From the NCBI GenBank assembly GCA_002780305.1, contig PEVD01000019.1, positions 1-53,874 on the forward strand: a stretch of 53,874 nucleotides of DNA, in the 5' to 3' direction. The notes under the pieces are model-generated. The model was given only the letters and a program-made list of their open reading frames with translations. It searched no databases and had not been told where the DNA came from. Source of the DNA: Candidatus Shapirobacteria bacterium CG03_land_8_20_14_0_80_40_19. Its GTDB lineage: Bacteria; Patescibacteriota; Microgenomatia; UM-FILTER-40-11. Within the stretch, counting starts at the first letter, position 1, and each line of letters opens with the position of its first letter. A program made the position numbers and the translations under genes. Positions 6,409 through 35,458 of the stretch are shown piece by piece.

Positions 6409-7308
6409 ATGCGTAGGATATTGCTCGTCGGGGGCTTTTTGCTGTTGGGACTTGTGTTCGTGTGCGTCGTTGTTGCCGGTGGGCCATACACCCGCTGGGT
6501 GCAGCCCGGGGCGGTGGTTTACACCGATCCCGACTCGGCCGCGGACGTGTCTGTCACTGTCACTAAGACCGTCGCGGTTTCGGTGACTCTCACGACCGGT
6601 TGGGCGGAGATTACGTCTCCACCGGAGTTGGCCGGCTTTGTGCAGACGAGCCAGTTGCTCAAGGAAGAGCCATCAGCCCTGAAGGTCCAGCGAGATGCGG
6701 ATGCACAGAAGGCAAAGGATGCGGCATTGACTGCGAGGAAGGTGGGCGATTTGTCTTGGGGAGAGCTCGTTGCTTTTCTCAAGCAATTGCTTGGCCAGCC
6801 CGTTACCGCCGCTTCCGCGCCCGCTACCGCCCTTGCGACCAAGACCTATGTGGTCAAGGCAGGGGATTCACTCTCCTTGATAGCGGCTCGCTACGGTGTC
6901 AACTGGGTGGACTTGGCCAAGGCCAACAACATCTCTTCCCCTTGGAGGATTGAGGTTGGCCAGAGCATGACCATCCCTGTTGCGCCCGTGACTGCGACCG
7001 TCTCGACCAGTGGGTGGCCCCGAACGGCAGCCGAGTTTCTCGCGCTGACCACCGCTGGTCAGCCCGCCGCGCCTGATGACAGGTCGTGGATCCCGATCCA
7101 AATCGGAGAAATCCACCGGCCGGTCGGTGAGAGCAATGCTTGGGCCGTCACCCGTGAGAAGAACAAGGAGGGATTGATCATTCCCTTCTGGGTTCGGAAC
7201 TACTCCGGGCGCGCTCAGGACGGGTATTGCATGGTCGGAGGCAAGTACGCCACTGGCACTCCGGCGAACTTCGCTGGGCTGTCGCAGGGCGTGACCTTTC
7301 GGCCGTAG
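6409..7308 (+). CDS. membrane-anchored LysM-domain protein, compositionally foreign (GC-rich)
   Basis: N-terminal TM anchor and LysM motif YVVKAGDSLSLIAARYGVNWVDLAKANNISSPWRIEVGQSMTIP. Strong SD AAGGAGG at 6396-6402, 6 nt before the ATG. Visibly much higher GC than its neighbours. Confidence 0.8.
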   Translation: MRRILLVGGFLLLGLVFVCVVVAGGPYTRWVQPGAVVYTDPDSAADVSVTVTKTVAVSVTLTTGWAEITSPPELAGFVQTSQLLKEEPSALKVQRDADAQKAKDAALTARKVGDLSWGELVAFLKQLLGQPVTAASAPATALATKTYVVKAGDSLSLIAARYGVNWVDLAKANNISSPWRIEVGQSMTIPVAPVTATVSTSGWPRTAAEFLALTTAGQPAAPDDRSWIPIQIGEIHRPVGESNAWAVTREKNKEGLIIPFWVRNYSGRAQDGYCMVGGKYATGTPANFAGLSQGVTFRP

Positions 7309-7505
7309 GCCAAACTCCGGTTAGGGGAGATACTGGCAGAACTGCCTAACATAGGCCAAGACCTATCCGCCCCAAGAGTTTCTTGGCGGCCAGTTCTGCT
7401 TTGCAGTTTTTTTTCTTTAGTGATGCCGTGACCGTAGTCATACAATTATCATTGCTCCATTGGGGAGATTGGTGAAAGTATGGCTACGGTTCGGTTCTTA
7501 GAGTT

Positions 7506-7534
7506 CAGAATGATTCTGGACAAGCCAGAATGAC
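7506..7534. repeat. intergenic half-copy of the GTCATTCTGG...CCAGAATGAC repeat family
   Basis: CAGAATGATTCTGGACAAGCCAGAATGAC matches the 3' half of the three intragenic copies at 10626-12120 (ATTCTGG/CCAGAAT hairpin and terminal CCAGAATGAC). Confidence 0.5.
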
Positions 7535-7570
7535 ATGACATTGTGAATTGTAAAAACCGAATTTAATTTA

Positions 7571-7690
7571 TCTGTCATCCCGAGTGAAGGGAAGTCTGAC
7601 TTCCCCGAAGTCGAGGGATCTCTTTTCTGAAACGAGTGAAAGGGATTCCTCCATTACACTCATTTCGTTCATTTCAGTCGGAATGACAGA
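7571..7690. repeat. MITE-like 120-nt element with 12-nt terminal inverted repeats
   Basis: TCTGTCATCCCG ... CGGAATGACAGA (11/12 complementary), with internal complementary segments (GGGAAGTC..GACTTCCCC; GAAACGAGTGA..TCATTTCGTTC). Non-coding. Confidence 0.5.
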
Positions 7691-7699
7691 AAGAAGTAT

Positions 7700-7918
7700 A
7701 TGAAACAAAATATTGGAACAATAATAATAGGATTAGCTTTAATAGCGGGAGTGGTTTTCGGCTACATGCAATCGGAAAAATGGCTTAAAAACGAAGCAAT
7801 TCAAGGTTGTTTAAGTGTCGGAGTTGACAAATTTGTTAATGCCGATGGTAAGGGTGGGGCGGATGTGCCAAATCCCAACAGTTATGACTTTTGCATGAAA
7901 GAGAAAGGCTACAAATGA
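7700..7918 (+). CDS. small membrane-anchored protein
   Basis: 72 aa with an N-terminal TM helix (IGTIIIGLALIAGVVFGY). Its stop overlaps the ATG of the next gene (ATGA). Confidence 0.5.
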   Translation: MKQNIGTIIIGLALIAGVVFGYMQSEKWLKNEAIQGCLSVGVDKFVNADGKGGADVPNPNSYDFCMKEKGYK

Positions 7919-8754
7919 AGACATTGACAGTAATTATTCCACTCTACAATGAAGAAAAAAGGCTTAATGATACTTTTTCTTGTTTGAAAAAGTTTAAAGG
8001 AGTCAGAGATATTGGTGTAGAAAAGTTCGTTTTTGTCAATGACGGCAGTAAAGACAATACTTTAAAACTGTTAAGAAACTTTAAAAGAAGTTTTAGCAAA
8101 AAGCTTGCCAATAAGGCTGAAATAGAGATTGTTGCTTATCCGGTCAATCACGGCCGGGGTTATGCAGTAATGCAGGGAGCCAAAAGAGTAAAAAGCGACT
8201 ACGGTATGTTTTTGGATGGCGACATGTCAATCCCGCTTGGCAATTTAGAGAACTTTTCTAAATTCATGAATCAGAATTATGATTTGTTGGTAGGAAGCAA
8301 AAAAATTAATGGGACGGTGACTTTAGTAAAAAGAAACTTTATCAGAGAATTTATCGGGGAGGTTCACAGCCGGATTTTAAGTTTTGTTTTAGGAATTAAA
8401 TTAGCCGATTTTACCGGCGGATTTAAGGTTTTTTCAAAATCAGTTTGTGAAGATATTTTTCCCAGATTAACTCAGGAAAGATGGGGGCTTGATCCGGAGA
8501 TTATCTATGTGACAAACAGACTTAATTATTCTATTAAAGAACTGCCGATTGTTTGGAGCCATATAAGCAAATCAAGCAAGGTTAATTTAATCCGTGATAT
8601 TTTAAGGGCTTTTAAAGAAATGGCGACCATCAAGTTAAACGACTGGAAAAATATTTATAATATTAATCCTCAACCGGCCATGCTAAATAAAGCTTTTTCC
8701 CTTTTAGTCAAATTTAGCTTATTATTGTTTATATGGCCGAAAAAATCCTCGTAA
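7915..8754 (+). CDS. family 2 glycosyltransferase (polyprenol-phosphate glycosyltransferase-like)
   Basis: MKTLTVIIPLYNEE..., VNDGSKDNT and DGDM (DXD-type) are classic GT2 signatures, with a C-terminal hydrophobic tail. ATG 7915 is preferred to the track start at 7891. Confidence 0.85.
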   Translation: MKTLTVIIPLYNEEKRLNDTFSCLKKFKGVRDIGVEKFVFVNDGSKDNTLKLLRNFKRSFSKKLANKAEIEIVAYPVNHGRGYAVMQGAKRVKSDYGMFLDGDMSIPLGNLENFSKFMNQNYDLLVGSKKINGTVTLVKRNFIREFIGEVHSRILSFVLGIKLADFTGGFKVFSKSVCEDIFPRLTQERWGLDPEIIYVTNRLNYSIKELPIVWSHISKSSKVNLIRDILRAFKEMATIKLNDWKNIYNINPQPAMLNKAFSLLVKFSLLLFIWPKKSS

Positions 8755-9971
8755 TCAGCACCTTTCCGCCAAAGGGTACATTATATAACCATTCTTCCAG
8801 TGCTGTTGCCGGATATACTAAAAACACTCTTGTTTGGGCGAATGAGCCGGATAAAAATTTCTCCTTTACTGTTTTAGCGGATATCTTGGATTCGGAAGAA
8901 GAATACGAAGATAACGACATAAAAGTAAAAAGAATTTGGAAAAGAAATTCTTTCTCGCTTTTTTCTTCTATTTATAACGAAATAGTACAAAATAAAGATA
9001 TTAGAAAAATCTTCTTTGCTTTCGAATGGGCAATGTTTGGTTCCAAGAAGTATTTAATGGGGTTTTTGCCAATACTTTTGCTTTTATTAAGACTGCAAGG
9101 AAAAAAAATTTATTTTGTTTCTCACGGTGTACTGTTAAATGCCGGCCTGGTTTCGATCCAAATGGGGGTAAGGGAAAATAGTTTAAAGGCAAAAATTTGG
9201 AGTCTTGGACTTAAAATACTTTATTTTTTTATTATTCTTTTATCTGATAAAGTCGTTGTTTTTGAGGAGTATTTAAGACAAGAACTCTTAAAATTGATCC
9301 CAAATTCAAGCAAGATATTGACAATTAATCACGGAGTGGAAACTAAAACAGACAGCAGTCTATCAAAGAAAAAAACGGACGAATTTGCGGTACAAAGTTT
9401 TGGGTTTTTAATTTGGTATAAAGGTTCAGATTGGCTGGTGGAAGAAATGGCAAACTATTTCAAAAACAATCCCAATTCAAAAATTAGACTGACAATGGTG
9501 GGAGGGGCTACTAAAACTTATACAGACCTTAATTATAAAAATTATATTGACAAGATTTACGATACAGCGGAAAAATCAGACGGAAAAGTTCAAATTACCG
9601 GATTTATCAAAGAAAAGGAAATTGCTGATTATTTTCAAAAGGCTGACCTTTTTATACTTCCGTATCGGGTATTAGTGTCTGCCAGTGGACCGCTTTCTTT
9701 AGCTTTTACTTATAGAAAACCATTTTTAATTTCCGAAAATTTAAAAGGTTACTGCTTGTCTAATGATTTTTCCCAGTCTTTAACCCAAACAGGACTATCG
9801 ATAAAAGATTTAGTTTTTTCTATGAGCGGAAATGGTTTACCCAATAAGATTGAAAACCTGATAAAGGATAATAATATGCTTGAAAAAATTCAAAGGTTTT
9901 CGGAACTGATGTACGAAAAGAGAAAATGGCCGGTAATTGGTAAAAAATATGCCGATGTTTTAAGCAAATGA
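8733..9971 (+). CDS. GT-B fold glycosyltransferase (GT4/group 1-like)
   Basis: 412 aa. The C-terminal half has the GT1/GT4 pattern (VGG...GFI..EE...YF..ADLFILPY). Overlaps both neighbours, so it looks operonic. Confidence 0.7.
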   Translation: MAEKILVISTFPPKGTLYNHSSSAVAGYTKNTLVWANEPDKNFSFTVLADILDSEEEYEDNDIKVKRIWKRNSFSLFSSIYNEIVQNKDIRKIFFAFEWAMFGSKKYLMGFLPILLLLLRLQGKKIYFVSHGVLLNAGLVSIQMGVRENSLKAKIWSLGLKILYFFIILLSDKVVVFEEYLRQELLKLIPNSSKILTINHGVETKTDSSLSKKKTDEFAVQSFGFLIWYKGSDWLVEEMANYFKNNPNSKIRLTMVGGATKTYTDLNYKNYIDKIYDTAEKSDGKVQITGFIKEKEIADYFQKADLFILPYRVLVSASGPLSLAFTYRKPFLISENLKGYCLSNDFSQSLTQTGLSIKDLVFSMSGNGLPNKIENLIKDNNMLEKIQRFSELMYEKRKWPVIGKKYADVLSK

Positions 9972-12900
9972 AAAAGATAAAGCAACTAATTATAAAAAAT
10001 TGGTCAGTCATTGCGATTGTCATTATTTGGTTTGGGATTGTTTTAACTAATTTTTCTCCAAATACTTTTCTTTCCGGTTGGGATAATTTACATTCCGAAT
10101 TTAATTTTTCCATTAATTTAAAGAGAGCTTTGTTTGCTTCCTGGCAGGAATACCAAGGACTGGGGTTACTTGGGGGTATGGGGCACGGGGCGGATTTGTT
10201 CAGACAAATTTTACTTTGGATTTCTTCTTTAGTTTTGCCGGTAAACTTTATCCGGTATTTTTTTCATTTTTCTATGCTTTTGTCTGGTTCTTTGGGCATT
10301 TATTTTTTGCTGAAAGATTTTGTTTTAGAAAAATACAGCGAGTTTGGTAAAAAATGGGGGGCCTTGGCTGGGGCGATTTTTTATTTGTTTAATTTAGGGA
10401 CATTACAAAGTTTTTATCTTGCATGGGAAGCTTTTTCTGTTCATTTTGGATTTTTACCGTGGTTGTTTTGGGGAGTATTTAAATACTTAAGAGAGCCTTC
10501 TAAAAAGAATTTACTAATATTTGTATTGATTAATATTTTGGCGGTCAGTCAAGGTTATGTGGCAACAGTGTTTTTAGTTTATGTAATGGCTTTAGGGTTA
10601 GTGTTAGCGGGGTATGTTGCGCTTGGTCATTCTGGGGAGGAACGAAGCGACGACTCCAGAATCCGATTCTGGATGCGTCCCGTTACGGCGGGACTTACCA
10701 GAATGACGAGAAAGGTTTTAATTATTTTTTTAATAATATTTTGTGTTAATGCTTTTTGGCTGGTGCCGAATTTGTATTTTGTTTTTAATGATGTCGGGAC
10801 CAATACTGGTGCGAAAATGAATTTAATGGCAACCGAGGATAACCTTTTAAGAAATAAAGAATATGGCGATTTTAAGAATTCTGCATTGCTGAAAGGCTTT
10901 TGGTTTGAAAATGTCGAATTGCAAAATAATGGTTCTACTGATTACATAATGGGTGATTGGGTAAACCATTTTCAAAACCCATATTTTTCAGGAATTGGTT
11001 ATATGCTTTTTGGTTTATCTGTTTTAGGAATAATTTTCAGCCTAACAACAAAGAATAAAAAAGCGCTTGTGTTCTTGCCTGTATTACTTCTTGCATTTAC
11101 ATTTTTAGCCAACGATACTATTGGTTTTTTTTCTTTGAATAAGATTTTATATAAACTTCCTCTTTTTTCCCAGATTTTCCGGTTTCCGTTTACCAAGTTT
11201 TCAATATTAACCGCCTTTTGTCTGGCGGTATTTTATGGGGTTTTTATATCGGTAATTTTAAGCTGTTTCCGTCATTCTGGGGAGGAACGAAGCGACGACT
11301 CCAGAATCCGATTCTGGATGCGCTCTTCGCCAGTTGGCGGATCGCTTACCAGAATGACGATAATATTATTTTTTATTTTATTGCCTATTATTTTTCTTTA
11401 TCCAATTTTTCAAGGCAAATTATTTTATGTTAAGGAAAAAGCAAAAATTCCGGCGGAATATTTTTTGGTTTTTGATTTCTTTAAAAATCAGGATAAGAAT
11501 ACACGGATTGCTAATTTTCCTCAGCCGACTTTTTGGGGCTGGACAAATTATAACTGGGGGAACCAGCTGTACAGCGGATCAGGCTTTTTGTGGTATGGGA
11601 TAAAGCAGCCGATTTTGGACCGCGCTTTTGATGTCTGGTCAAAACAAAATGAAAATTACTATTGGGAAATTTCGTATGCTTTGTATTCTAAAAACAGAGA
11701 GCTTTTTGAAAATATTTTGGAAAAATATCAAGTCAATTGGTTGTTGGTGGACGGGAATGTGATTAATCCGGGAGCGGAAAAGGCTTTGTTTTTGGAGGAA
11801 TTGGAAAAACTGCTTATGGCTGACAGCTCACAGCTTACAGCAAACAGCAACAAGCAATCAGCTATAAGCTATAAGCAGAAACTTGAACTGGTGCAGACTT
11901 TCGGCAAAATAAAGATTTATAAAATTAATTTGGAAACAGGAGTTAATGATTTTGTGTGGTTGGGAGAGAATTTGCCAGTTATAAATTCTTATGAATGGGG
12001 AAATTACGACAGAGCGTATGGTGAGATTGGGAATTACATTTCAATTGACCGTCATTCTGGGGAGGATCCGCCATTTGGCGGAGACGACTCCAGAATCGAT
12101 GTTGGACAAGCCAGCATGACAGAAGAAGTTTATTACCCTTTCCGTTCGGTTTTTACCGGCCGGAAAACTGATGAGCTTGATATAGAAATTGAGGATTTGG
12201 GGGACAGAATTGTTTTTAAAGCTCCTTTACCTGATGGGTTTGAAAACTATTTGATTGAACTGCCAAAAGATTATGACGGGAAAGAGTTGGTGGAGGTTGA
12301 TCCGGGAAGCTTTGAAACTAAGTATTTTTTACCAACTATTGATTCTGACGGACAAACACTTTCGGTTGTCTTTCCGAAAATAAAAGGTTTGCTTTCTGCT
12401 GAAATTAATCCCTCTAAGCAAAATCTTCAGGCTATAAACTGTAATCAATTTAGTCAAGGACAAGTTGGTCTTGAAAATATGCAGGGACTGGTTAGGTTGC
12501 AGGCGCAGGATGCCACTAATTGCGGGGCGAGTTTTTATCTGCCGGATTTATCACATAAATATGCTTATTTAATTTCTGCAGAAGCAAAGAATATTTCCGG
12601 CAAGCCGCTTCTTTTTTGGCTGGAAAATTTGACCAACCGAAAAGCGGATTTAGAAGCCTATTTGAGTAAAGAACTAGATGCTGAACGCTATACACTAAAC
12701 GCTGATTATTTTGTTCAACCCCCGATGGCGGATGACGGACTTGGGTATACCTTACATTTTGATAATATTTCAATCGGCCGGCAGGAGTCGATAAACGAGC
12801 TGGGGAAGATTTCCGTACTTCCGATTCCGTATAATTTTTTAACTTCGTTAAAATTAACTCAAATCTCAAATCTCAAATCTCAAAACCAAAACGCAAAATT

Positions 12901-13228
12901 AAAAGCTAATTCCCTTTTAATCAGTCATCCTAATCCATCACTTTATAAAGTTCAAATTAATGGAGAAATTAGGTCAAACGAAATTTTGATTTTGTCGCAA
13001 TCTTACCATTCAGGTTGGCTGGCTTTTAATCTTGACACAAAAAGAATAATCAAAGACCATTTTGTGGTTAACAATTGGTCTAATGGGTGGATATTGCTCG
13101 CTAACACCCAACCACTATTACCTAACACCTATATTTTATTTTTCTGGCCGCAATATTTGCAGTATCTGGGATTTGGATTTTATTTGATTATTTTGCTTTT
13201 TTGGCTGCGCGCTAAATCAAGAAAATAA
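9968..13228 (+). CDS. large polytopic membrane protein, GT-C-like glycosyltransferase candidate (AftD/DUF3367-like N-terminus)
   Basis: 1086 aa with more than 10 N-terminal TM helices and a large soluble C-terminal region ending in a TM helix. Follows GT2 and GT4 genes in an overlapping operon. Carries three in-frame repeat insertions. Confidence 0.6.
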   Translation: MKKIKQLIIKNWSVIAIVIIWFGIVLTNFSPNTFLSGWDNLHSEFNFSINLKRALFASWQEYQGLGLLGGMGHGADLFRQILLWISSLVLPVNFIRYFFHFSMLLSGSLGIYFLLKDFVLEKYSEFGKKWGALAGAIFYLFNLGTLQSFYLAWEAFSVHFGFLPWLFWGVFKYLREPSKKNLLIFVLINILAVSQGYVATVFLVYVMALGLVLAGYVALGHSGEERSDDSRIRFWMRPVTAGLTRMTRKVLIIFLIIFCVNAFWLVPNLYFVFNDVGTNTGAKMNLMATEDNLLRNKEYGDFKNSALLKGFWFENVELQNNGSTDYIMGDWVNHFQNPYFSGIGYMLFGLSVLGIIFSLTTKNKKALVFLPVLLLAFTFLANDTIGFFSLNKILYKLPLFSQIFRFPFTKFSILTAFCLAVFYGVFISVILSCFRHSGEERSDDSRIRFWMRSSPVGGSLTRMTIILFFILLPIIFLYPIFQGKLFYVKEKAKIPAEYFLVFDFFKNQDKNTRIANFPQPTFWGWTNYNWGNQLYSGSGFLWYGIKQPILDRAFDVWSKQNENYYWEISYALYSKNRELFENILEKYQVNWLLVDGNVINPGAEKALFLEELEKLLMADSSQLTANSNKQSAISYKQKLELVQTFGKIKIYKINLETGVNDFVWLGENLPVINSYEWGNYDRAYGEIGNYISIDRHSGEDPPFGGDDSRIDVGQASMTEEVYYPFRSVFTGRKTDELDIEIEDLGDRIVFKAPLPDGFENYLIELPKDYDGKELVEVDPGSFETKYFLPTIDSDGQTLSVVFPKIKGLLSAEINPSKQNLQAINCNQFSQGQVGLENMQGLVRLQAQDATNCGASFYLPDLSHKYAYLISAEAKNISGKPLLFWLENLTNRKADLEAYLSKELDAERYTLNADYFVQPPMADDGLGYTLHFDNISIGRQESINELGKISVLPIPYNFLTSLKLTQISNLKSQNQNAKLKANSLLISHPNPSLYKVQINGEIRSNEILILSQSYHSGWLAFNLDTKRIIKDHFVVNNWSNGWILLANTQPLLPNTYILFFWPQYLQYLGFGFYLIILLFWLRAKSRK
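10626..10707. repeat. in-frame palindromic repeat, family 1, copy 1
   Basis: GTCATTCTGGGGAGGAACGAAGCGACGACTCCAGAATCCGATTCTGGATGCG...TACCAGAATGAC; translates as HSGEERSDDSRIRFWMR...TRMT. Confidence 0.7.
11271..11358. repeat. in-frame palindromic repeat, family 1, copy 2
   Basis: First 52 nt are identical to copy 1. The inner hairpin differs (CGCCAGTTGGCG), and the terminal TACCAGAATGAC is the same. Confidence 0.7.
11821..11878. repeat. in-frame low-complexity ACAGC/AGCTATA oligo-repeat tract
   Basis: TGACAGCTCACAGCTTACAGCAAACAGCAACAAGCAATCAGCTATAAGCTATAAGCAG translates as ADSSQLTANSNKQSAISYKQ. It shares its vocabulary with the intergenic ACAGACTACTGACTACTGACTACAGC at 6033-6060. Confidence 0.5.
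12051..12120. repeat. in-frame palindromic repeat, family 1, copy 3 (diverged)
   Basis: GTCATTCTGGGGAGGATCCGCCATTTGGCGGAGACGACTCCAGAATCGATGTTGGACAAGCCAGCATGAC; same reading phase as copies 1 and 2. Confidence 0.6.
12858..12897. repeat. in-frame tandem heptamer tract (CTCAAAT x3.5)
   Basis: CTCAAATCTCAAATCTCAAATCTCAAAACCAAAACGCAAAA translates as QISNLKSQNQNAK. Confidence 0.5.
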
Positions 13229-13842
13229 GCCACCATTTTTTCTTTGTCAAAAGGAACAAGCATTTTGGGATAATCAAAAAGACCTTTAATCATTATCAGT
13301 CTTGTTCCAAGATAAAGAGGGTCAGCCACCCAATCATATTTAATTCTAAGACCTTTTAATATATCTTCAAAATTAAATTCTTTCGTGTTTTTTAAAATAA
13401 GATATAGATCTATAAAATCTCTAGCCTTTTCTCTTGAGAGGATCGTGTCAATTTTATTAACGGCAATATCAAACAGATTATCAATTTCTAAGTCGTTATA
13501 TTTCTTATCTTTTTTTGTTCTTTCAAAAGCCCAAAAATTAAAATCAGTTTTAAGTTTCTCCGTTTTTCCTTTTTTAAGAAAAAAAATTTTTGCTGTGATT
13601 CCTTGTTGGTAATCAACAACATTTACACCGATCTTTTTAAAAATAGGTTTAATATATGAAGCTAACATTTGATAATCAATTTCGTTAGCAGAAAAAAAAT
13701 CTAAATCTTCGGAGAGACGGTGCTGGAAATAGAATTCGGATAAGGCGGTGCCACCGCTTAAGTAAAAATTATCGGTAATAAATTTGTTTTTACTTAAGAC
13801 ATCAAGTACTTCTTTTTGAAACTCGGTTAAAATGCTTTTCAT
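13180..13842 (-). CDS. AbiEii/AbiGii-family nucleotidyltransferase toxin (type IV TA / abortive infection)
   Basis: LSGGTALSEFYFQHRLSEDLDFFS is the hallmark GGTAL..HR.S.DLDF motif. ATG 13842 lies 2 nt after the upstream stop. The 3' end overlaps the convergent 9968..13228 gene by about 49 nt. Confidence 0.8.
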   Translation of the reverse strand: MKSILTEFQKEVLDVLSKNKFITDNFYLSGGTALSEFYFQHRLSEDLDFFSANEIDYQMLASYIKPIFKKIGVNVVDYQQGITAKIFFLKKGKTEKLKTDFNFWAFERTKKDKKYNDLEIDNLFDIAVNKIDTILSREKARDFIDLYLILKNTKEFNFEDILKGLRIKYDWVADPLYLGTRLIMIKGLFDYPKMLVPFDKEKMVAYFLDLARSQKSKIIK

Positions 13843-13844
13843 TG

Positions 13845-14066
13845 TCAACAAAGAATATATTCTTCGATATATTTGACTTTTAAGTTTCCTTCAACTTGAT
13901 GTTTTATTTTCGGCCAATAATGGCGAAGTTTTTTTAAATCCAATTTTTCTCCATCTAAGCCGTAATTTATCAGCTGTAAAAGTCTCCATCTTTCGTACTC
14001 CTCCGGAAACTGTTTTAAATAATCTTCATCGGTTGACCAATTGTACATAGGGCTATTATAACTCAT
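13845..14066 (-). CDS. small partner protein of the AbiEii-like toxin (putative antitoxin, not a full AbiEi)
   Basis: 73 aa, immediately upstream of the toxin and nearly abutting it. WRLLQLINYGLDGEKLDLKKLRHYW resembles the short helical proteins often found upstream of AbiEii genes. Confidence 0.45.
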   Translation of the reverse strand: MSYNSPMYNWSTDEDYLKQFPEEYERWRLLQLINYGLDGEKLDLKKLRHYWPKIKHQVEGNLKVKYIEEYILC

Positions 14067-14107: not shown

Positions 14108-15295
14108 ATGACTTTTTTGGTATTTATATTAATTCTCTCGGTTTTAGTTTTAGTCCACGAAACAGGGCATTTTTTAGCGGCTAAAAAAGCCGGCATTAAG
14201 GTGGAAGAATTTGCTTTTGGACTGCCGTTTACCAAACCGATTTTAAGCAAAAAGAAAAGGGGGACGATTTATTCGGTTTATCCTTTGATTTTTGGCGGAT
14301 TTGTAAAATTATATGGAGAAGACGGTTTAACGGAAGATCAAAGACCAAAGATCCCGCCTTGCCGGCGGGCAGGCAAAGATCCAAACTATGGACGAGCGTA
14401 TTTTGAGAAGTCAATTTTTAAACGGGCTTCGGTTTTACTGGCGGGGGTGTTTATGAATTTAGTTTTGGCCATTGTTTGTTTTTCGATTTTGTATTTTGTT
14501 TGGGGAATTCCGACCAAAACCGGTAAAGTAATTGTGGAAGCGGTGAGAGAAAATTCGCCGGCGCAAGCCGCCGAAATAAAGCCGAACGATTGGATTGTGG
14601 CGGTTAATGGTGATTTTATTAATGAAGGTGACCAACTTATTAAAATTACTCAAGGAATGGCCGGCCAAAAAGTAAAGCTGGAAATTTCCCGAAGAAATGA
14701 TAATCCATGCAAACCGCCGGCAGACAATGTTCTTGGCGGGATGGCAACGACTGAATTCGGATTTAATTGTAACGGAGAAAATTTATTAATTTTTTTAATT
14801 CCAAGGGAAAATCCGCCGGCAGGGGAAGGACCCCTGGGAGTGATTATTACCGACAGTATTTTTAAGAAATACCCTTTTTATATTATGCCGTTTTTAGGCG
14901 TAAGAGAGGGATTCAAGGATTCTTTAGGTTGGGGGAAAATGGTCTTAAGTTCGCTTGGCCAGATGGTTTATAGTTTAATTACCAGGGGAAAAGTGCCGGA
15001 GGGAATTGCCGGTCCGATAGGTATATATCAAATTACCGGGGAAGCGGCTAAGGCCGGCTGGATGGCAGTTTTACAATTGCTGGGAATTATTTCAGTGAAT
15101 TTGGCGATTGTAAATATTTTGCCAATTCCGGCCATGGATGGAGGAAGACTGGTTTTTTTAGGATTTGAGCTGGTTTTTAAGAGAAAAGCACCGCCCAAAA
15201 TTGAGGCGGCAATTAACAGCGTTGGCCTGATGATTTTATTGGGATTAATGTTTCTGATTACCGTTAAAGATTTATTAAGACTGGCGGGTGGGTAA
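14108..15295 (+). CDS. rseP: RseP/M50-family site-2 metalloprotease with PDZ domain
   Basis: HETGHFLAAK (HExxH) in TM1, a PDZ-like middle region (SPAQAAEIKPNDWIVAVNG), and C-terminal NLAIVNILPIPAMDGGRL (LDG motif). Confidence 0.85.
   Translation: MTFLVFILILSVLVLVHETGHFLAAKKAGIKVEEFAFGLPFTKPILSKKKRGTIYSVYPLIFGGFVKLYGEDGLTEDQRPKIPPCRRAGKDPNYGRAYFEKSIFKRASVLLAGVFMNLVLAIVCFSILYFVWGIPTKTGKVIVEAVRENSPAQAAEIKPNDWIVAVNGDFINEGDQLIKITQGMAGQKVKLEISRRNDNPCKPPADNVLGGMATTEFGFNCNGENLLIFLIPRENPPAGEGPLGVIITDSIFKKYPFYIMPFLGVREGFKDSLGWGKMVLSSLGQMVYSLITRGKVPEGIAGPIGIYQITGEAAKAGWMAVLQLLGIISVNLAIVNILPIPAMDGGRLVFLGFELVFKRKAPPKIEAAINSVGLMILLGLMFLITVKDLLRLAGG
14336..14392. repeat. in-frame palindromic repeat, family 2, RseP copy
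   Basis: GATCAAAGACCAAAGATCCCGCCTTGCCGGCGGGCAGGCAAAGATCCAAACTATGG is near-identical in architecture to 34930-34986. Translates as EDQRPKIPPCRRAGKDPNYG. Confidence 0.65.
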
Positions 15296-34165: not shown

Positions 34166-35458
34166 ATGAAAATCATACTTAAACAAATAAGGAAAACGGT
34201 TGTTTTTCTTTTTTTTATAGTTCTTTCAGGAGGAGTTGGTTATTCTTTGGGCCAAAAAAAGATCTCCTTTTCCCTAAATCAAAGCCGCAATTTTCCCCAA
34301 GTCACGATCGAAAGAGTTTTGCCGACGGATAAACAAGGAAAAGTTGATTTTTCTTTATTTTGGCAGGTTTGGGATAAGCTGGAAGAAAAACATTTAAACC
34401 GCAAGGATTTTAACTATGAAAAAATGGTTTACGGGGCAATTTCCGGATTAACTTCTTCATTGGACGACCCTTATACGTTTTTTTTACCCCCGGTGGAAAA
34501 CAAAGAGACAAAAGATGACCTGAGGGGTGATTTTGAGGGTGTGGGGATTCAGATTGGCTATAATAAAGATAAACAACTGGCGGTGATTGCCCCTCTTTCC
34601 GGAACTCCCGCTGAATCGGCGGGCCTTAAACCAGGCGATGTAATTACCAAAATTATTGATCAGTCTAACAATGTTGACAAAGAAACCTTTGATATCACAC
34701 TTCCGGAAGCGGTTCGGTTAATCAGAGGAAAAAAAGGATCAGAAGTAACCTTGTCGATTTTCCGTGAGGGGAAAGACAAAGTTTTTGACGTGACCTTGAA
34801 AAGAGACACGATTGTAGTAAAAAGTGTCGAGGTCAGTTTTGTGGAGAACATAAATAAAAGGGTGGCGGTTTTAAAACTTTCAAGATTTGGGGAGAGGACC
34901 GATGAAGAATGGGAGCAGGCGGTGGCAGAGATCAAAGATCAAAGATCAAACCTGCCTGCCGGCAAGGCAGGGATCAAAAACTATGGAGGAATTGTTTTGG
35001 ATCTGAGAAATAATCCGGGCGGTTTTTTACAGGGATCGGTTTTTATCTGCAGCGAATTTCTTGGTTCAGGGGTAATTGTTCAACAGGACAGCGGTGTTAA
35101 CGGGAAAGAGATTTATCAGGTTGACCGGAGGGGTTCTTTACTGACCGATCCGCTGGTGGTTTTGATAAACGGTGGATCAGCCTCTGCCTCAGAAATAGTT
35201 GCCGGGGCTTTACAAGATGCCAAAAGAGCAAAAATTGTCGGGGAAAAATCTTTCGGCAAGGGAACGGTCCAGGAAGCGGAAGATTTGACCAATGGAGCGG
35301 GGTTGCATATCACTGTTTCCCGCTGGCTGCTACCGTCAGGCCGATCGATTGATAAGGAGGGAATTACTCCCGACATAGAAATAAAAGTTCCGGAAGAAGA
35401 AACGGACGATACTAAAGATTTGCAACTGGAGAAAGCGATTGAAATTTTGACAAAATAA
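34166..35458 (+). CDS. S41-family carboxyl-terminal processing protease
   Basis: N-terminal anchor, PDZ (GTPAESAGLKPGDVITKI), LDLRNNPGG, catalytic GGSASASEI, and SFGKGTVQ. Confidence 0.88.
   Translation: MKIILKQIRKTVVFLFFIVLSGGVGYSLGQKKISFSLNQSRNFPQVTIERVLPTDKQGKVDFSLFWQVWDKLEEKHLNRKDFNYEKMVYGAISGLTSSLDDPYTFFLPPVENKETKDDLRGDFEGVGIQIGYNKDKQLAVIAPLSGTPAESAGLKPGDVITKIIDQSNNVDKETFDITLPEAVRLIRGKKGSEVTLSIFREGKDKVFDVTLKRDTIVVKSVEVSFVENINKRVAVLKLSRFGERTDEEWEQAVAEIKDQRSNLPAGKAGIKNYGGIVLDLRNNPGGFLQGSVFICSEFLGSGVIVQQDSGVNGKEIYQVDRRGSLLTDPLVVLINGGSASASEIVAGALQDAKRAKIVGEKSFGKGTVQEAEDLTNGAGLHITVSRWLLPSGRSIDKEGITPDIEIKVPEEETDDTKDLQLEKAIEILTK
34930..34986. repeat. in-frame palindromic repeat, family 2, S41 protease copy
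   Basis: GATCAAAGATCAAAGATCAAACCTGCCTGCCGGCAAGGCAGGGATCAAAAACTATGG translates as KDQRSNLPAGKAGIKNYG, immediately before GIVLDLRNNPGG. Confidence 0.65.

What the first reader, a model, noticed from the sequence alone, without database searches (positions are those of the whole stretch)
10626..12120. Double-hairpin repeat (GTCATTCTGG...CCAGAATGAC) inserted in-frame three times in one 1086-aa membrane glycosyltransferase-like gene
Copies lie at about 10626-10707, 11271-11358 and 12051-12120. All begin GTCATTCTGGGGAGGA and end CCAG(A/C)ATGAC, giving terminal inverted repeats. Copies 1 and 2 share an identical 52-nt core (GTCATTCTGGGGAGGAACGAAGCGACGACTCCAGAATCCGATTCTGGATGCG). They then carry different inner segments that each still form a short GC hairpin: GTCCCG..CGGGAC versus CGCCA..TGGCG, and CCGCCA..TGGCGG in copy 3. 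Structure is therefore kept while sequence changes. All three sit in the same phase and read through as HSGEERSDDSRIRFWMR (twice) and HSGEDPPFGGDDSRIDVGQASMT without breaking the ORF. By hand translation the core is stop-free in 5 of 6 phases. A half-copy in non-coding DNA (7506-7534) shows the unit exists independently of this gene. Copies 1 and 2 directly follow hydrophobic helices, so they would fall in loops. The nearest established precedent is the Rickettsia palindromic element class that inserts in-frame into ORFs. I do not know of a description for this type of genome.
Basis: partly seen in the sequence, partly recalled or inferred. Interest (0 to 1): 0.78.

Follow-up and report, generated by a model that had tools for sequence, protein, structure and literature searches.

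The report
Mobile hairpin-repeat pairs inside a gene
Three copies of a small palindromic repeat sit in-frame inside one membrane-enzyme gene of a Microgenomates (CPR) bacterium and add 24-30 residues to loops; each is a pair of hairpins matching the two ends of a GIY-YIG (Ssn-type) nuclease gene cassette, a kind of element already known from Neisseria and Rickettsia and seen here in a new bacterial group.

Summary
Three 70-88-nt GC-rich double hairpins lie at 10626-10707, 11271-11358 and 12051-12120. All are read through in one 1086-aa GT-C-like gene. They are absent from every orthologue of 67% identity or less and present in three other assemblies of the same species.

The element is not private to this genome. 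Its core occurs on more than 118 metagenome contigs, and its termini on more than 120 genome stretches, mostly Microgenomates. Each copy is two inverted hairpin units, YGTC-ATTCTGG-loop-CCAGAAT-C, with the tags pointing outward. The spacer between the units is either 0-40 nt or 281-334 nt. In five of the six long cases it holds a roughly 95-aa GIY-YIG gene that is 49% identical to the Neisseria ssnA product.

So the copies are the two ends of an SRM-ssn-SRM cassette with the gene missing. They fit the CGTC-tagged REP superfamily of Di Nocera 2013, which includes Neisseria dRS3 and Rickettsia RPE-4/-6. They also resemble the Ssn-related motifs of Chenal 2025.

Mobilisation by Ssn is inferred, not shown. 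Verdict: a new member of a known kind, of moderate interest.

The parts
9968..13228 (+). Host gene: a 1086-aa polytopic membrane protein with a beta-rich C-terminal half, GT-C glycosyltransferase-like. It carries all three full copies.
   Evidence: ORF. There are 556 homologues, some hitting PF10131/PF11847 and one named an arabinofuranosyltransferase family protein. It lies downstream of GT2 and GT1 genes. The best long matches of the AF2 model are AglB/STT3, but with low TM-scores of 0.26-0.42.
10625..10708 (+). Copy 1, 84 nt counting the two flanking tag positions. Unit I is 10626-10663 (GTC ATTCTGG [20-nt loop] CCAGAAT C). The spacer is C10664. Unit II, inverted, is 10665-10707 with the nested hairpin GTCCCG..CGGGAC in its loop. 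It encodes residues 220-247.
   Evidence: Absent from orthologues. pLDDT is below 50 at residues 222-238, between helices 195-218 and 239-274.
11270..11359 (+). Copy 2, 90 nt counting the tags C11270 and G11359. Unit I is 11271-11308, identical to copy 1. The spacer is C11309. Unit II, inverted, is 11310-11358 with the nested hairpin CGCCA..TGGCG. It encodes residues 435-464.
   Evidence: It is a clean insertion against L003 at the DNA level and against orthologues. pLDDT is below 50 at 438-445 and 452-457, between helices 407-434 and 459-476.
12050..12121 (+). Copy 3, 72 nt counting the tag positions. Unit I is 12051-12097 with the nested hairpin CCGCCA..TGGCGG in its loop. There is no spacer. 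Unit II, inverted, is 12098-12120 (GATGTTGG ACAAG CCAGCAT GAC; variant stem with one G-T pair). It encodes residues 695-718.
   Evidence: Absent from orthologues. pLDDT is below 50 at 694-718.
7504..7535 (+). Truncated copy in non-coding DNA. It has a 6-8-nt remnant of the 3' end of unit I (TTCAGAAT) followed by a complete minimal unit II. On the minus strand the unit reads TGTC ATTCTGG CTTGT CCAGAAT C.
   Evidence: Taken alone it does not fold better than shuffles as RNA (z -0.5).
7573..7688 (+). Non-coding dimer of a second YGTC-tagged hairpin family, tags outward (TGTCATCCCGA ... TCGGAATGACA).
   Evidence: DNA fold z -4.0.

Best explanation
Each of the three segments is a non-autonomous, MITE-like copy of a small mobile cassette that is abundant in Microgenomates and other CPR bacteria.

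Shown here:
- The full-length cassette is [unit I: YGTC-ATTCTGG-loop-CCAGAAT-C], then a roughly 95-aa single-domain GIY-YIG nuclease gene of the Ssn family, then [unit II, the same kind of hairpin inverted, ending GAATGAC-R].
- The window's copies are these two terminal hairpins joined by 0-1 nt, with the gene absent.
- In Di Nocera's terms they are head-to-head heterodimers of CGTC-tagged REPs.
- The hairpins are conserved by compensatory change.
- The copies are insertions relative to orthologues.
- The open reading frame runs through them.

Inferred:
- The Ssn-type nuclease, supplied in trans from a full-length copy elsewhere in the genome, recognises the hairpins as single-stranded DNA. 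It nicks just outside the YGTC tag on each strand, as Neisseria SsnA does upstream of its NTS motif. These nicks start the copying or movement of the unit.
- Insertions into genes survive only when they land in a tolerant loop, in a phase without the terminal TGA, and with a net length that is a multiple of three. With one flanking base on each side the three copies measure 84, 90 and 72 nt.
- The inserts are then translated as hydrophilic loop extensions (RHSGEE...ARMT).

My confidence that this is the element's identity and origin is about 0.85. My confidence that Ssn is the mobilising enzyme is about 0.45. The single figure given for this explanation (0.7) is a blend of the two.
For: Family size and spread: the core pattern hits more than 118 metagenome contigs, and the terminal pattern more than 120 genome stretches. 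Most hits are Levy-, Roizman-, Curtiss-, Davies- and Gottesmanbacteria, with several copies per MAG.

Cassette architecture: tblastn found about 17 loci with a 87-109-aa GIY-YIG ORF. In at least 10 of the 14 ORFs of this subfamily, unit I ends 2-17 nt before the ATG and unit II starts at or overlaps the stop. Several proteins end ..ILDKPE*, encoded by ATT CTG GAC AAG CCA GAA TGA.

Spacer lengths: the spacer between unit I and the next unit II is bimodal. There are 100 cases of 0-40 nt, none of 40-250 nt, and six of 281-334 nt, five of which hold the GIY-YIG ORF.

The protein: it matches Pfam GIY-YIG at E 1e-13. It is 49% identical over 86 residues (E 3e-28) to the N. gonorrhoeae ORF that is flanked by canonical NTS repeats.

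Literature:
- SsnA is a 94-aa cd10448 GIY-YIG enzyme that binds the NTS hairpin (CGTCATTCCCGCG..GCGGGAATC) and cuts single-stranded DNA upstream of it. ssn genes are flanked by such motifs, and the authors note that the architecture looks like an insertion sequence (PMC11893778).
- CGTC-tagged REPs have a CGTC/TGTC tag and stems starting AT. They occur mostly as dimers with tags outside. Intragenic dimers encode 20-30 aa, and the superfamily includes dRS3 and RPE-4/-6 (PMC3733652).

Tag: in 144 dereplicated elements, the base before GTCAT is C in 62% and T in 33%. The base after ATGAC is G in 50% and A in 42%.

Pairing: in a set anchored only on unit I and the loop, 7 of 8 departures from the stem consensus are double, Watson-Crick-preserving changes.

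Insertion and read-through.

Reality of the copies: the same three copies appear in three independent assemblies of the species.
Against: - No GIY-YIG gene lies in the 54-kb window. I could not show that this genome has one.
- There is no target-site duplication. No filled/empty pair closer than about 75% DNA identity was found. Movement is therefore inferred from distribution and was not observed.
- Element lengths measured GTCAT..ATGAC are 1 or 2 mod 3 in 36 of 39 in-ORF cases. No single fixed boundary makes all insertions multiples of three.
- The published SRM search pattern does not match these units, because the stem is 7 bp and unit I has a 13-30-nt loop.
- Ssn has only been shown to cut single-stranded DNA. 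No joining activity is known, and its demonstrated role in Neisseria is modulating transformation, not transposition.
- The direction of descent is not settled: the nuclease gene could instead have invaded the spacer of pre-existing dimers.
- Translation of the inserts is untested.
Confidence: 0.7

Rival explanations
1. The hairpin dimers are the primary, older repeat, spread by some other enzyme or by recombination. The GIY-YIG gene is a later homing-type invader of their spacer. With no spacer, the junction CCAGAATC|GATTCTGG is a 16-bp perfect palindrome. Alternatively the gene is a domesticated guardian that cuts incoming single-stranded DNA carrying the motif, as in Neisseria.
For: In Neisseria, Ssn limits transformation by NTS-bearing DNA, and no transposition is shown. 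CGTC REPs were reported to have no dedicated transposase. Short dimers outnumber gene-bearing ones by about 100 to 5. No target duplication or recent insertion polymorphism was seen.
Against: The gene is the only cargo seen in the spacer, and it sits in one fixed orientation with its stop inside unit II. That pattern is typical of an autonomous/non-autonomous pair. No alternative mobilising gene was found next to the units in about 240 loci, though I screened only for what lies in the spacer.
Confidence: 0.25
2. The segments are ordinary lineage-specific protein loop repeats or low-complexity insertions that arose within this gene family. They are not mobile DNA.
For: All three sit in one gene and in variable loops.
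Against: The same DNA occurs in non-coding DNA of the window. It also occurs in unrelated genes in both orientations and several phases, and in intergenic DNA of many organisms. Orthologues down to 42% identity lack the segments. Conservation is at the level of DNA pairing, not peptide sequence.
Confidence: 0.02
3. The segments are intervening sequences removed before the mature protein is made, either as a small intron-like RNA hairpin or as a protein splicing element. They would then never appear in the protein.
For: They have strong hairpin potential as RNA. No expression data are available.
Against: No Rfam family matches 7300-12300 even at E of 1 or less. The segments are far too short for an intein or a group I/II intron. 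In 39 of 64 classifiable elements the ORF stays open through the element, whereas precise removal of GTCAT..ATGAC would shift the frame in 36 of those 39. Frame use avoids the terminal TGA.
Confidence: 0.04
4. They are REP/REPIN elements of the classical kind, mobilised by a RAYT (IS200/IS605-type tyrosine transposase).
For: The look is the same: short tagged hairpins arranged as inverted dimers.
Against: The tag is YGTC, not GTAG. CGTC-type repeats were never found flanking RAYT genes. Here the spacer cargo is a GIY-YIG gene, not a Y1 transposase.
Confidence: 0.04
5. Assembly or binning artefact: chimeric joins through a repeat.
For: Repeats can mislead short-read assemblers.
Against: The same three copies at the same sites occur in the window and in ENA, JGI and a second JGI assembly (L001, L002, L104; 98.5-99.9% identity). 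The ORF remains intact through them.
Confidence: 0.01

Closest known systems
Ssn nucleases with their NTS / Ssn-related motif (SRM) hairpin repeats (Chenal et al. 2025, Nat Commun, PMC11893778)
   Same: Both have a single-domain GIY-YIG protein of about 94 aa, flanked on both sides by 20-50-nt hairpin repeats that begin (C/T)GTCAT and end GAATC. The CPR protein is 49% identical to the gonococcal one. In both cases the repeats far outnumber the genes.
   Different: The stem is 7 bp (ATTCTGG) instead of 8-9 bp. Unit I has a 13-30-nt structured loop, and the published SRM pattern does not match. Around the CPR genes the tags point outward. At the single N. gonorrhoeae locus I read, the nearest repeats have their tags facing the gene. 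[quoted passage not shown] CPR bacteria are not mentioned in the main text of that paper.
CGTC-tagged REP superfamily (Di Nocera, De Gregorio and Rocco 2013, BMC Genomics, PMC3733652), including Neisseria dRS3
   Same: Both have an unpaired CGTC/TGTC tag at one end and a stem beginning AT. Unit II has a 5-nt loop and a short tail. Both occur mostly as inverted dimers with tags outside ('HH'), with variable spacers. Intragenic dimers encode 20-30 aa.
   Different: The stem is shorter. The units form heterodimers with one greatly enlarged loop carrying nested GC hairpins. The host phylum is not among the five listed in 2013. That paper found no associated enzyme, whereas here the GIY-YIG gene sits in the dimer spacer.
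Rickettsia palindromic elements (Ogata et al. 2000, 2002; summarised in PMC10969869)
   Same: Both are palindromic repeats inserted in-frame in unrelated genes and tolerated at the protein level. RPE-4 and RPE-6 are CGTC-tagged REPs according to Di Nocera 2013.
   Different: RPE-1-type elements are about 100-150 bp and specific to Rickettsia. I made no sequence comparison with RPE consensus sequences. No GIY-YIG partner has been described for RPEs, although Chenal et al. count more than 300 SRMs in Rickettsia.
REP/REPIN elements with RAYT transposases; IS200/IS605
   Same: Both are inverted hairpin dimers thought to be recognised as single-stranded DNA by a small nuclease encoded between or next to the repeats.
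   Different: The tag is different (GTAG) and so is the enzyme class (HUH tyrosine transposase rather than GIY-YIG).
Bacterial MITEs (Correia/NEMIS, ERIC, RUP, BOX, Nezha)
   Same: Both are short non-autonomous elements with inverted ends, sometimes intragenic and in-frame.
   Different: Classical MITEs derive from DDE-transposase insertion sequences and make target-site duplications. None is seen here.

Membership tests
CGTC-tagged REPs (Di Nocera 2013) | Unpaired terminal tag CGTC (often TGTC or CCTC) at one end of the hairpin | tested here: met
   The base before GTCAT is C in 62% and T in 33% of 144 elements. In the window, copies 2 and 3 have C, the 7513-7535 unit has T, and copy 1 has G.
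CGTC-tagged REPs (Di Nocera 2013) | Stem of 8-9 bp whose first two pairs are A-T / T-A | tested here: inconclusive
   The stem starts AT as required, but is 7 bp (ATTCTGG/CCAGAAT). In unit I it can be extended by GAG/CTC after a bulge.
CGTC-tagged REPs (Di Nocera 2013) | Loop of 4-5 nt and a short unpaired tail | tested here: inconclusive
   The minimal unit II has a 5-nt loop (ACAAG) and tail C. Unit I has a 13-30-nt loop, and many copies of unit II carry nested hairpins of 25-31 nt.
CGTC-tagged REPs (Di Nocera 2013) | Mostly inverted dimers with the tags outside ('HH') | tested here: met
   All three window copies and 100 of 118 paired units have tags outside with 0-40-nt spacers.
Ssn / SRM system (Chenal 2025) | Single-domain GIY-YIG protein of about 94 aa in the cd10448 clade | tested here: met
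   The ORFs are 87-109 aa. Pfam GIY-YIG is the only domain, at E 1e-13. The protein is 49% identical (E 3e-28) to the NTS-flanked N. gonorrhoeae ORF. CDD itself was not available, so cd10448 membership rests on that identity.
Ssn / SRM system (Chenal 2025) | Gene flanked 5' and 3' by the hairpin motif | tested here: met
   At least 10 of 14 subfamily genes have unit I within 17 nt of the start and unit II at the stop.
Ssn / SRM system (Chenal 2025) | Repeat matches the SRM search pattern HGTCWYN(0-2)YYVSBRHN(0-5)WNVSBRGN(0-2)RNCYNB | tested here: not met
   There are no matches in the window. Units I and II fail, while the NTS control matches. The leading HGTCWY and the overall hairpin layout are shared.
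Ssn / SRM system (Chenal 2025) | The protein binds the hairpin as single-stranded DNA and cuts upstream of it | not testable with these tools
   This needs purified protein and oligonucleotides.
Ssn / SRM system (Chenal 2025) | An ssn gene is present in the same genome as the repeats | tested here: inconclusive
   None lies in the 54-kb window. The rest of the genome was not available. L064 carries a unit I identical to the window's 38-nt unit I next to a full cassette, but it is not shown to be the same organism.
Rickettsia palindromic elements | Sequence belongs to one of the RPE families of Rickettsia | not tested
   No RPE consensus or Rickettsia genome was at hand. The only link is through Di Nocera's assignment of RPE-4/-6 to the CGTC superfamily.
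Rickettsia palindromic elements | In-frame insertion into unrelated protein genes, compatible with the fold | tested here: met
Classical MITE | Terminal inverted repeats plus a target-site duplication, with a related DDE insertion sequence | tested here: not met
   Inverted ends are present. There is no duplication at k of 2 or more in 144 elements. The partner gene is GIY-YIG.

The most novel reading that the evidence does not exclude
The Ssn-type GIY-YIG nuclease is the long-missing mobilising enzyme of the CGTC-tagged REP superfamily, which includes Neisseria dRS3/NTS and Rickettsia RPE-4/-6. The tags-outward hairpin dimers would be its non-autonomous derivatives, which would make this a bacterial transposon type driven by a single-strand-specific GIY-YIG nuclease. 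In CPR bacteria it would then have colonised protein-coding genes on a large scale, so that a sizeable share of their proteins carry element-encoded loop peptides.
Probability: 0.35. Interest if true: 0.7.

Novelty: new member of a known kind. Interest (0 to 1): 0.45.

Why it matters
Three points make this worth noting.

1. It gives a concrete identity to GC-rich in-frame 'junk' that inflates CPR proteins and confuses annotation and alignment. In this one gene, about 80 of 1086 residues are element-encoded. At least one further in-frame palindrome family occurs elsewhere in the window.

2. It links three literatures that were only partly joined: Rickettsia RPEs, CGTC-tagged REPs and the Ssn nucleases.

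3. The CPR data add a piece that the two key papers do not report. The dimer spacer is either almost empty or holds exactly one ssn gene in a fixed orientation. This is the signature of an autonomous/non-autonomous pair.

The third point makes an open question directly testable: what spreads CGTC-type repeats? The 2013 paper found no dedicated transposase. CPR Ssn proteins and their very regular substrates offer a way to test it.

Tried and rejected
- **Hit at 41741.** The 21/24 match lies in a conserved MBL-fold ORF with no inverted partner. I treated it as chance.
- **Conservation between strains.** I tested whether the copies are more conserved than the host gene. There are 0 of 77 window-versus-L104 mismatches inside the copies. 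But 70 of the 77 cluster at 12690-12925, so the test has no power.
- **Empty sites.** I joined the flanks of 234 elements and searched them against all held loci. Only homologues of 67-75% identity turned up. They show clean insertions but cannot resolve the exact junction.
- **Target-site duplication.** None was found.
- **Fixed element boundary.** No single boundary makes all in-ORF insertions multiples of three. Adding one base on each side works for the window's three copies and for the commonest class, but not for the others.
- **Membrane-protein hosts.** There is no enrichment: 15 of 55 hosts against 162 of 743 background ORFs have two or more TM-like segments.
- **Rfam.** Nothing was found.
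- **Solved structures.** Only the UPF0213 relatives 1YWL and 1ZG2 matched.
- **NCBIfam.** No family matched the nuclease.
- **Supplementary tables of the Ssn paper.** These are not held.
- **Literature.** Searches for CPR together with REP or MITE, and for a GIY-YIG-associated MITE, found nothing relevant beyond the two key papers.
Full report
**1. Observation.**

GTCATTCTGGGGAGGA occurs exactly at 10626, 11271 and 12051. A search allowing three mismatches expects 0.36 matches, and none of 100 shuffles reached the observed four. The fourth hit, at 41741, has three mismatches, lies in a conserved MBL-fold ORF and has no inverted partner; I treat it as chance.

Copies 1 and 2 share 52 identical bases. 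Copies 1 and 2 end in perfect 10-nt inverted repeats; copy 3 ends CCAGCATGAC.

All three lie in phase 1 of ORF 9968-13228 and encode residues 220-247, 435-464 and 695-718. The 52-nt core is stop-free in five of six phases, as claimed. The whole copies are open in only three or four phases, because the terminal GAATGAC gives TGA in one phase on each strand.

GC content is 0.56 in the copies against 0.37 for the gene. The copies fold much better than shuffles, as RNA (z -3.9 to -5.0) and as DNA (z -3.5 to -4.8).

The non-coding 'half-copy' is a complete single hairpin unit at 7512-7534, preceded by a short remnant of the other unit.

**2. The segments are insertions, and they are real.**

The 1086-aa protein has 556 detectable homologues. 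In an alignment with 21 of them, the three segments are present only in P0001 (98-99% identical). They are clean gaps in all twenty orthologues of 42-67% identity.

The syntenic relative L003 lacks them, and a DNA alignment around copy 2 shows the element as one block.

The same three copies are present in ENA and JGI assemblies of the same species (L001, L002, L104; 98.5-99.9% identity). That excludes an assembly artefact.

In an AlphaFold2 model (mean pLDDT 70), segments with pLDDT below 50 include 222-238, 438-445/452-457 and 694-718. The first two lie between predicted long helices. Low confidence is expected where the alignment has gaps, so this is consistent with loop positions but does not prove them.

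The model's best long structural matches are the GT-C enzymes AglB and STT3, with low TM-scores of 0.26-0.42. Some homologues hit PF10131 and PF11847. GT2 and GT1 genes lie just upstream. 'Membrane glycosyltransferase-like' is therefore a reasonable description.

**3. The element is a large family.**

The pattern GTCATTCTGGGGAGGA-N(5-30)-GACTCCAGAAT found at least 118 metagenome contigs. The pattern GTCATTCTGG-N(40-70)-CCAGAATGAC found at least 120 stretches in species-representative genomes.

Most genome hits are Microgenomates (Levy-, Roizman-, Curtiss-, Davies- and Gottesmanbacteria) and other CPR groups, often with several contigs per MAG. Hits in Bacteroidota, Clostridia and Gammaproteobacteria mostly share only the terminal 10-mer and have different interiors.

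Read side by side, the copies are modular:
- Unit I is GTC-ATTCTGG-GGAGGA[loop or nested GC hairpin]GACGACT-CCAGAAT-C.
- A variable spacer follows.
- Unit II is G-ATTCTGG-AC[AAG or nested hairpin]G-CCAGAAT-GAC.
- The minimal element is 61-62 nt.
- Unit II on the opposite strand reads GTC-ATTCTGG-CTTGT-CCAGAAT-C, the same layout as unit I.

Each copy is therefore an inverted pair of one kind of hairpin.

**4. The partner gene.**

In several contigs unit I was followed not by unit II but by an ORF beginning M..G.VYIMAN.RPTLY. Reading three such loci gave unit I, 2-17 nt, a gene of about 95 aa, then unit II at or overlapping the stop codon.

A tblastn of one such protein against all held DNA found about 17 loci. 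In at least 10 of the 14 ORFs belonging to this subfamily, both units are in place. Several proteins end ..ILDKPE*, meaning the stop codon is the TGA of the right terminus.

More distant GIY-YIG genes (L065, L168, L192) are flanked by other hairpins, and those at L168 and L192 end in ATGAC.

The distance from unit I to the next unit II is sharply bimodal. There are 100 cases of 0-40 nt, none between 40 and 250 nt, and six of 281-334 nt. Five of the six contain the intact ORF. Longer distances contain ordinary genes between separate elements.

The protein matches Pfam GIY-YIG (E 1e-13) and nothing else. No such gene lies in the window.

**5. What is known.**

Chenal et al. 2025 (PMC11893778) describe Ssn:
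- It is a 94-aa single-domain GIY-YIG protein (cd10448) of Neisseria meningitidis.
- It binds the hairpin repeat NTS (CGTCATTCCCGCGMAVGCGGGAATCYRG, a subset of dRS3) only as single-stranded DNA and cuts upstream of it.
- Homologues across bacteria are flanked by 'Ssn-related motifs'.
- The authors remark that NTS-ssnA-NTS looks like an insertion sequence.
- Rickettsia and Wolbachia are among the genomes with more than 300 motifs.

By luck, two gonococcal chromosomes are filed in the plasmid collection. The CPR protein matches an ORF there at 49% identity (E 3e-28), and that ORF is flanked by canonical NTS repeats.

Di Nocera et al. 2013 (PMC3733652) define CGTC-tagged REPs:
- They have an unpaired CGTC or TGTC tag.
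- The stem begins AT and is 8-9 bp; the loop is 4-5 nt; there is a short tail.
- They occur mostly as inverted dimers with tags outside.
- Intragenic dimers encode 20-30 aa.
- dRS3 is CGTC-1, and Rickettsia RPE-6 and RPE-4 are CGTC-1 and CGTC-4.

**6. Membership.**

In 144 dereplicated elements, the base before GTCAT is C (62%) or T (33%). The base after ATGAC is G (50%) or A (42%). This is the CGTC/TGTC tag on each strand.

The stem starts AT, and the dimers have their tags outside. The stem is 7 bp rather than 8-9. Unit I has an enlarged, structured loop.

The literal SRM search pattern of Chenal et al. does not match either unit, although it matches an NTS control.

I therefore file the element as a new, divergent family within the CGTC-tagged REP / Ssn-motif kind. 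I do not call it a match to the published motif. I made no direct sequence comparison with RPEs.

**7. Selection on the hairpin, and use in genes.**

I built a set anchored only on unit I and the 9-nt loop region. In it, seven of eight departures from the outer-stem consensus are double changes that keep Watson-Crick pairing: ATCCT/AGGAT five times and ATTCC/GGAAT twice. Only one is a mismatch. No G-T pairs appear in that set, which weakly suggests a DNA-level rather than an RNA-level constraint.

Of 70 dereplicated complete short elements from the metagenome contigs:
- 39 lie in a frame open for at least 50 codons on both sides; 34 of these have unit I first and 5 are reversed;
- 25 do not lie in such a frame;
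- 6 are too near a contig end to classify.

In-ORF copies mostly read RHSGE.. or VILG.. at the left end and ..ARMT or ..QND at the right end. They never use the phase containing TGA; that absence follows from the open-frame criterion used to define the in-ORF set.

Host proteins are not enriched for membrane proteins.

**8. Mechanism.**

Shown:
- the cassette architecture;
- the deletion-like relation between long and short forms;
- pairing conservation;
- insertion relative to orthologues;
- read-through.

Inferred: Ssn supplied in trans nicks single-stranded DNA just outside each tag. With tags pointing outward, the two cuts would bracket the whole unit. Copies in genes then persist only in tolerant loops and permissive phases.

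Weak points:
- There is no target duplication.
- No near-identical empty site was found.
- No boundary definition makes every in-ORF insertion a multiple of three. The window's three copies become 84, 90 and 72 nt if one flanking base on each side is counted.
- No joining activity is known for Ssn.
- The direction of descent is open: the nuclease gene may have invaded pre-existing dimers.

All three full copies lie in one 3.3-kb gene of a 54-kb window. On a uniform-insertion assumption the chance of this is about 0.004 (my arithmetic). Copies 1 and 2 differ only in the loop of unit II. Together these suggest local re-insertion or conversion.

**9. Verdict.**

It is a new member, in a new bacterial group, of a kind described in 2013 and 2025.

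The most novel element is the near-empty-or-ssn spacer dichotomy, together with the high share of translated intragenic copies in CPR bacteria. My searches found no description of these in the held literature.

Noticed in passing
window 11818-11884: A fourth in-frame insert in the same gene (ADSSQLTANSNKQSAISYKQK), built from GCTGACAGCT.. / ..AGCTATAAGC imperfect inverted motifs. P0003 has a similar insert at the same site, and P0002 has DDSQLTANSKKQSAISDK at a different site. pLDDT is below 50 at residues 619-635. The DNA fold is only weakly better than shuffles (z -1.8).
   Followed up: partly
window 14335-14385 and 34929-34979: A second family of in-frame palindromic inserts (AGATCAAAGAYCAAAGATC + GC-rich hairpin + GATC..), 75% alike. 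One copy adds 11 residues to the M50 protease relative to L003; the other lies in the 430-aa ORF 34166-35458, not annotated here.
   Followed up: partly
window 7573-7688: A non-coding 116-nt dimer of a different YGTC-tagged hairpin family (TGTCATCCCGA...TCGGAATGACA). DNA fold z -4.0.
   Followed up: partly
window 12690-12925: A segment of the host gene that is hypervariable between strains. It holds 70 of the 77 mismatches to L104. P0001 carries a low-complexity insert there (SKFQAPNSKQSQNTKYKI).
   Followed up: partly
window 6409-7308: A LysM-domain gene with GC far above the rest of the window (1-kb windows about 0.5, one 70-nt window at 0.73, against 0.40). It is also present in L001 and L002, so it is not a chimera. 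It may have been acquired from elsewhere.
   Followed up: no
window 41977-44595: A DnaB-like helicase ORF of 872 aa that appears to carry an intein (..SGCLAGETLV ... DIVVHNSIEQ..).
   Followed up: no
window 13180-13851 (minus strand): An AbiEii-family toxin gene whose 3' end overlaps the 3' end of the host gene by about 50 nt. A small upstream partner ORF is called in L001 and L002.
   Followed up: no
L242 (N. gonorrhoeae NZ_CP119142.1, filed as a 2.17-Mb 'plasmid'): Gonococcal chromosomes are present in the plasmid collection. At this ssnA locus the nearest NTS repeats have their CGTC tags facing the gene, the opposite of the CPR cassettes. The ORF has no obvious in-frame ATG.
   Followed up: no
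L038/L054/L077, L100 and others: Stem variants of unit II (ATTCCGG/CCGGAAT, ATCCTGG/CCAGGAT, ATGCTGG/CCAGCAT) occur together with an unchanged unit I in the same element. Dimers are therefore often heterodimers in the stem as well as in the loop.
   Followed up: no
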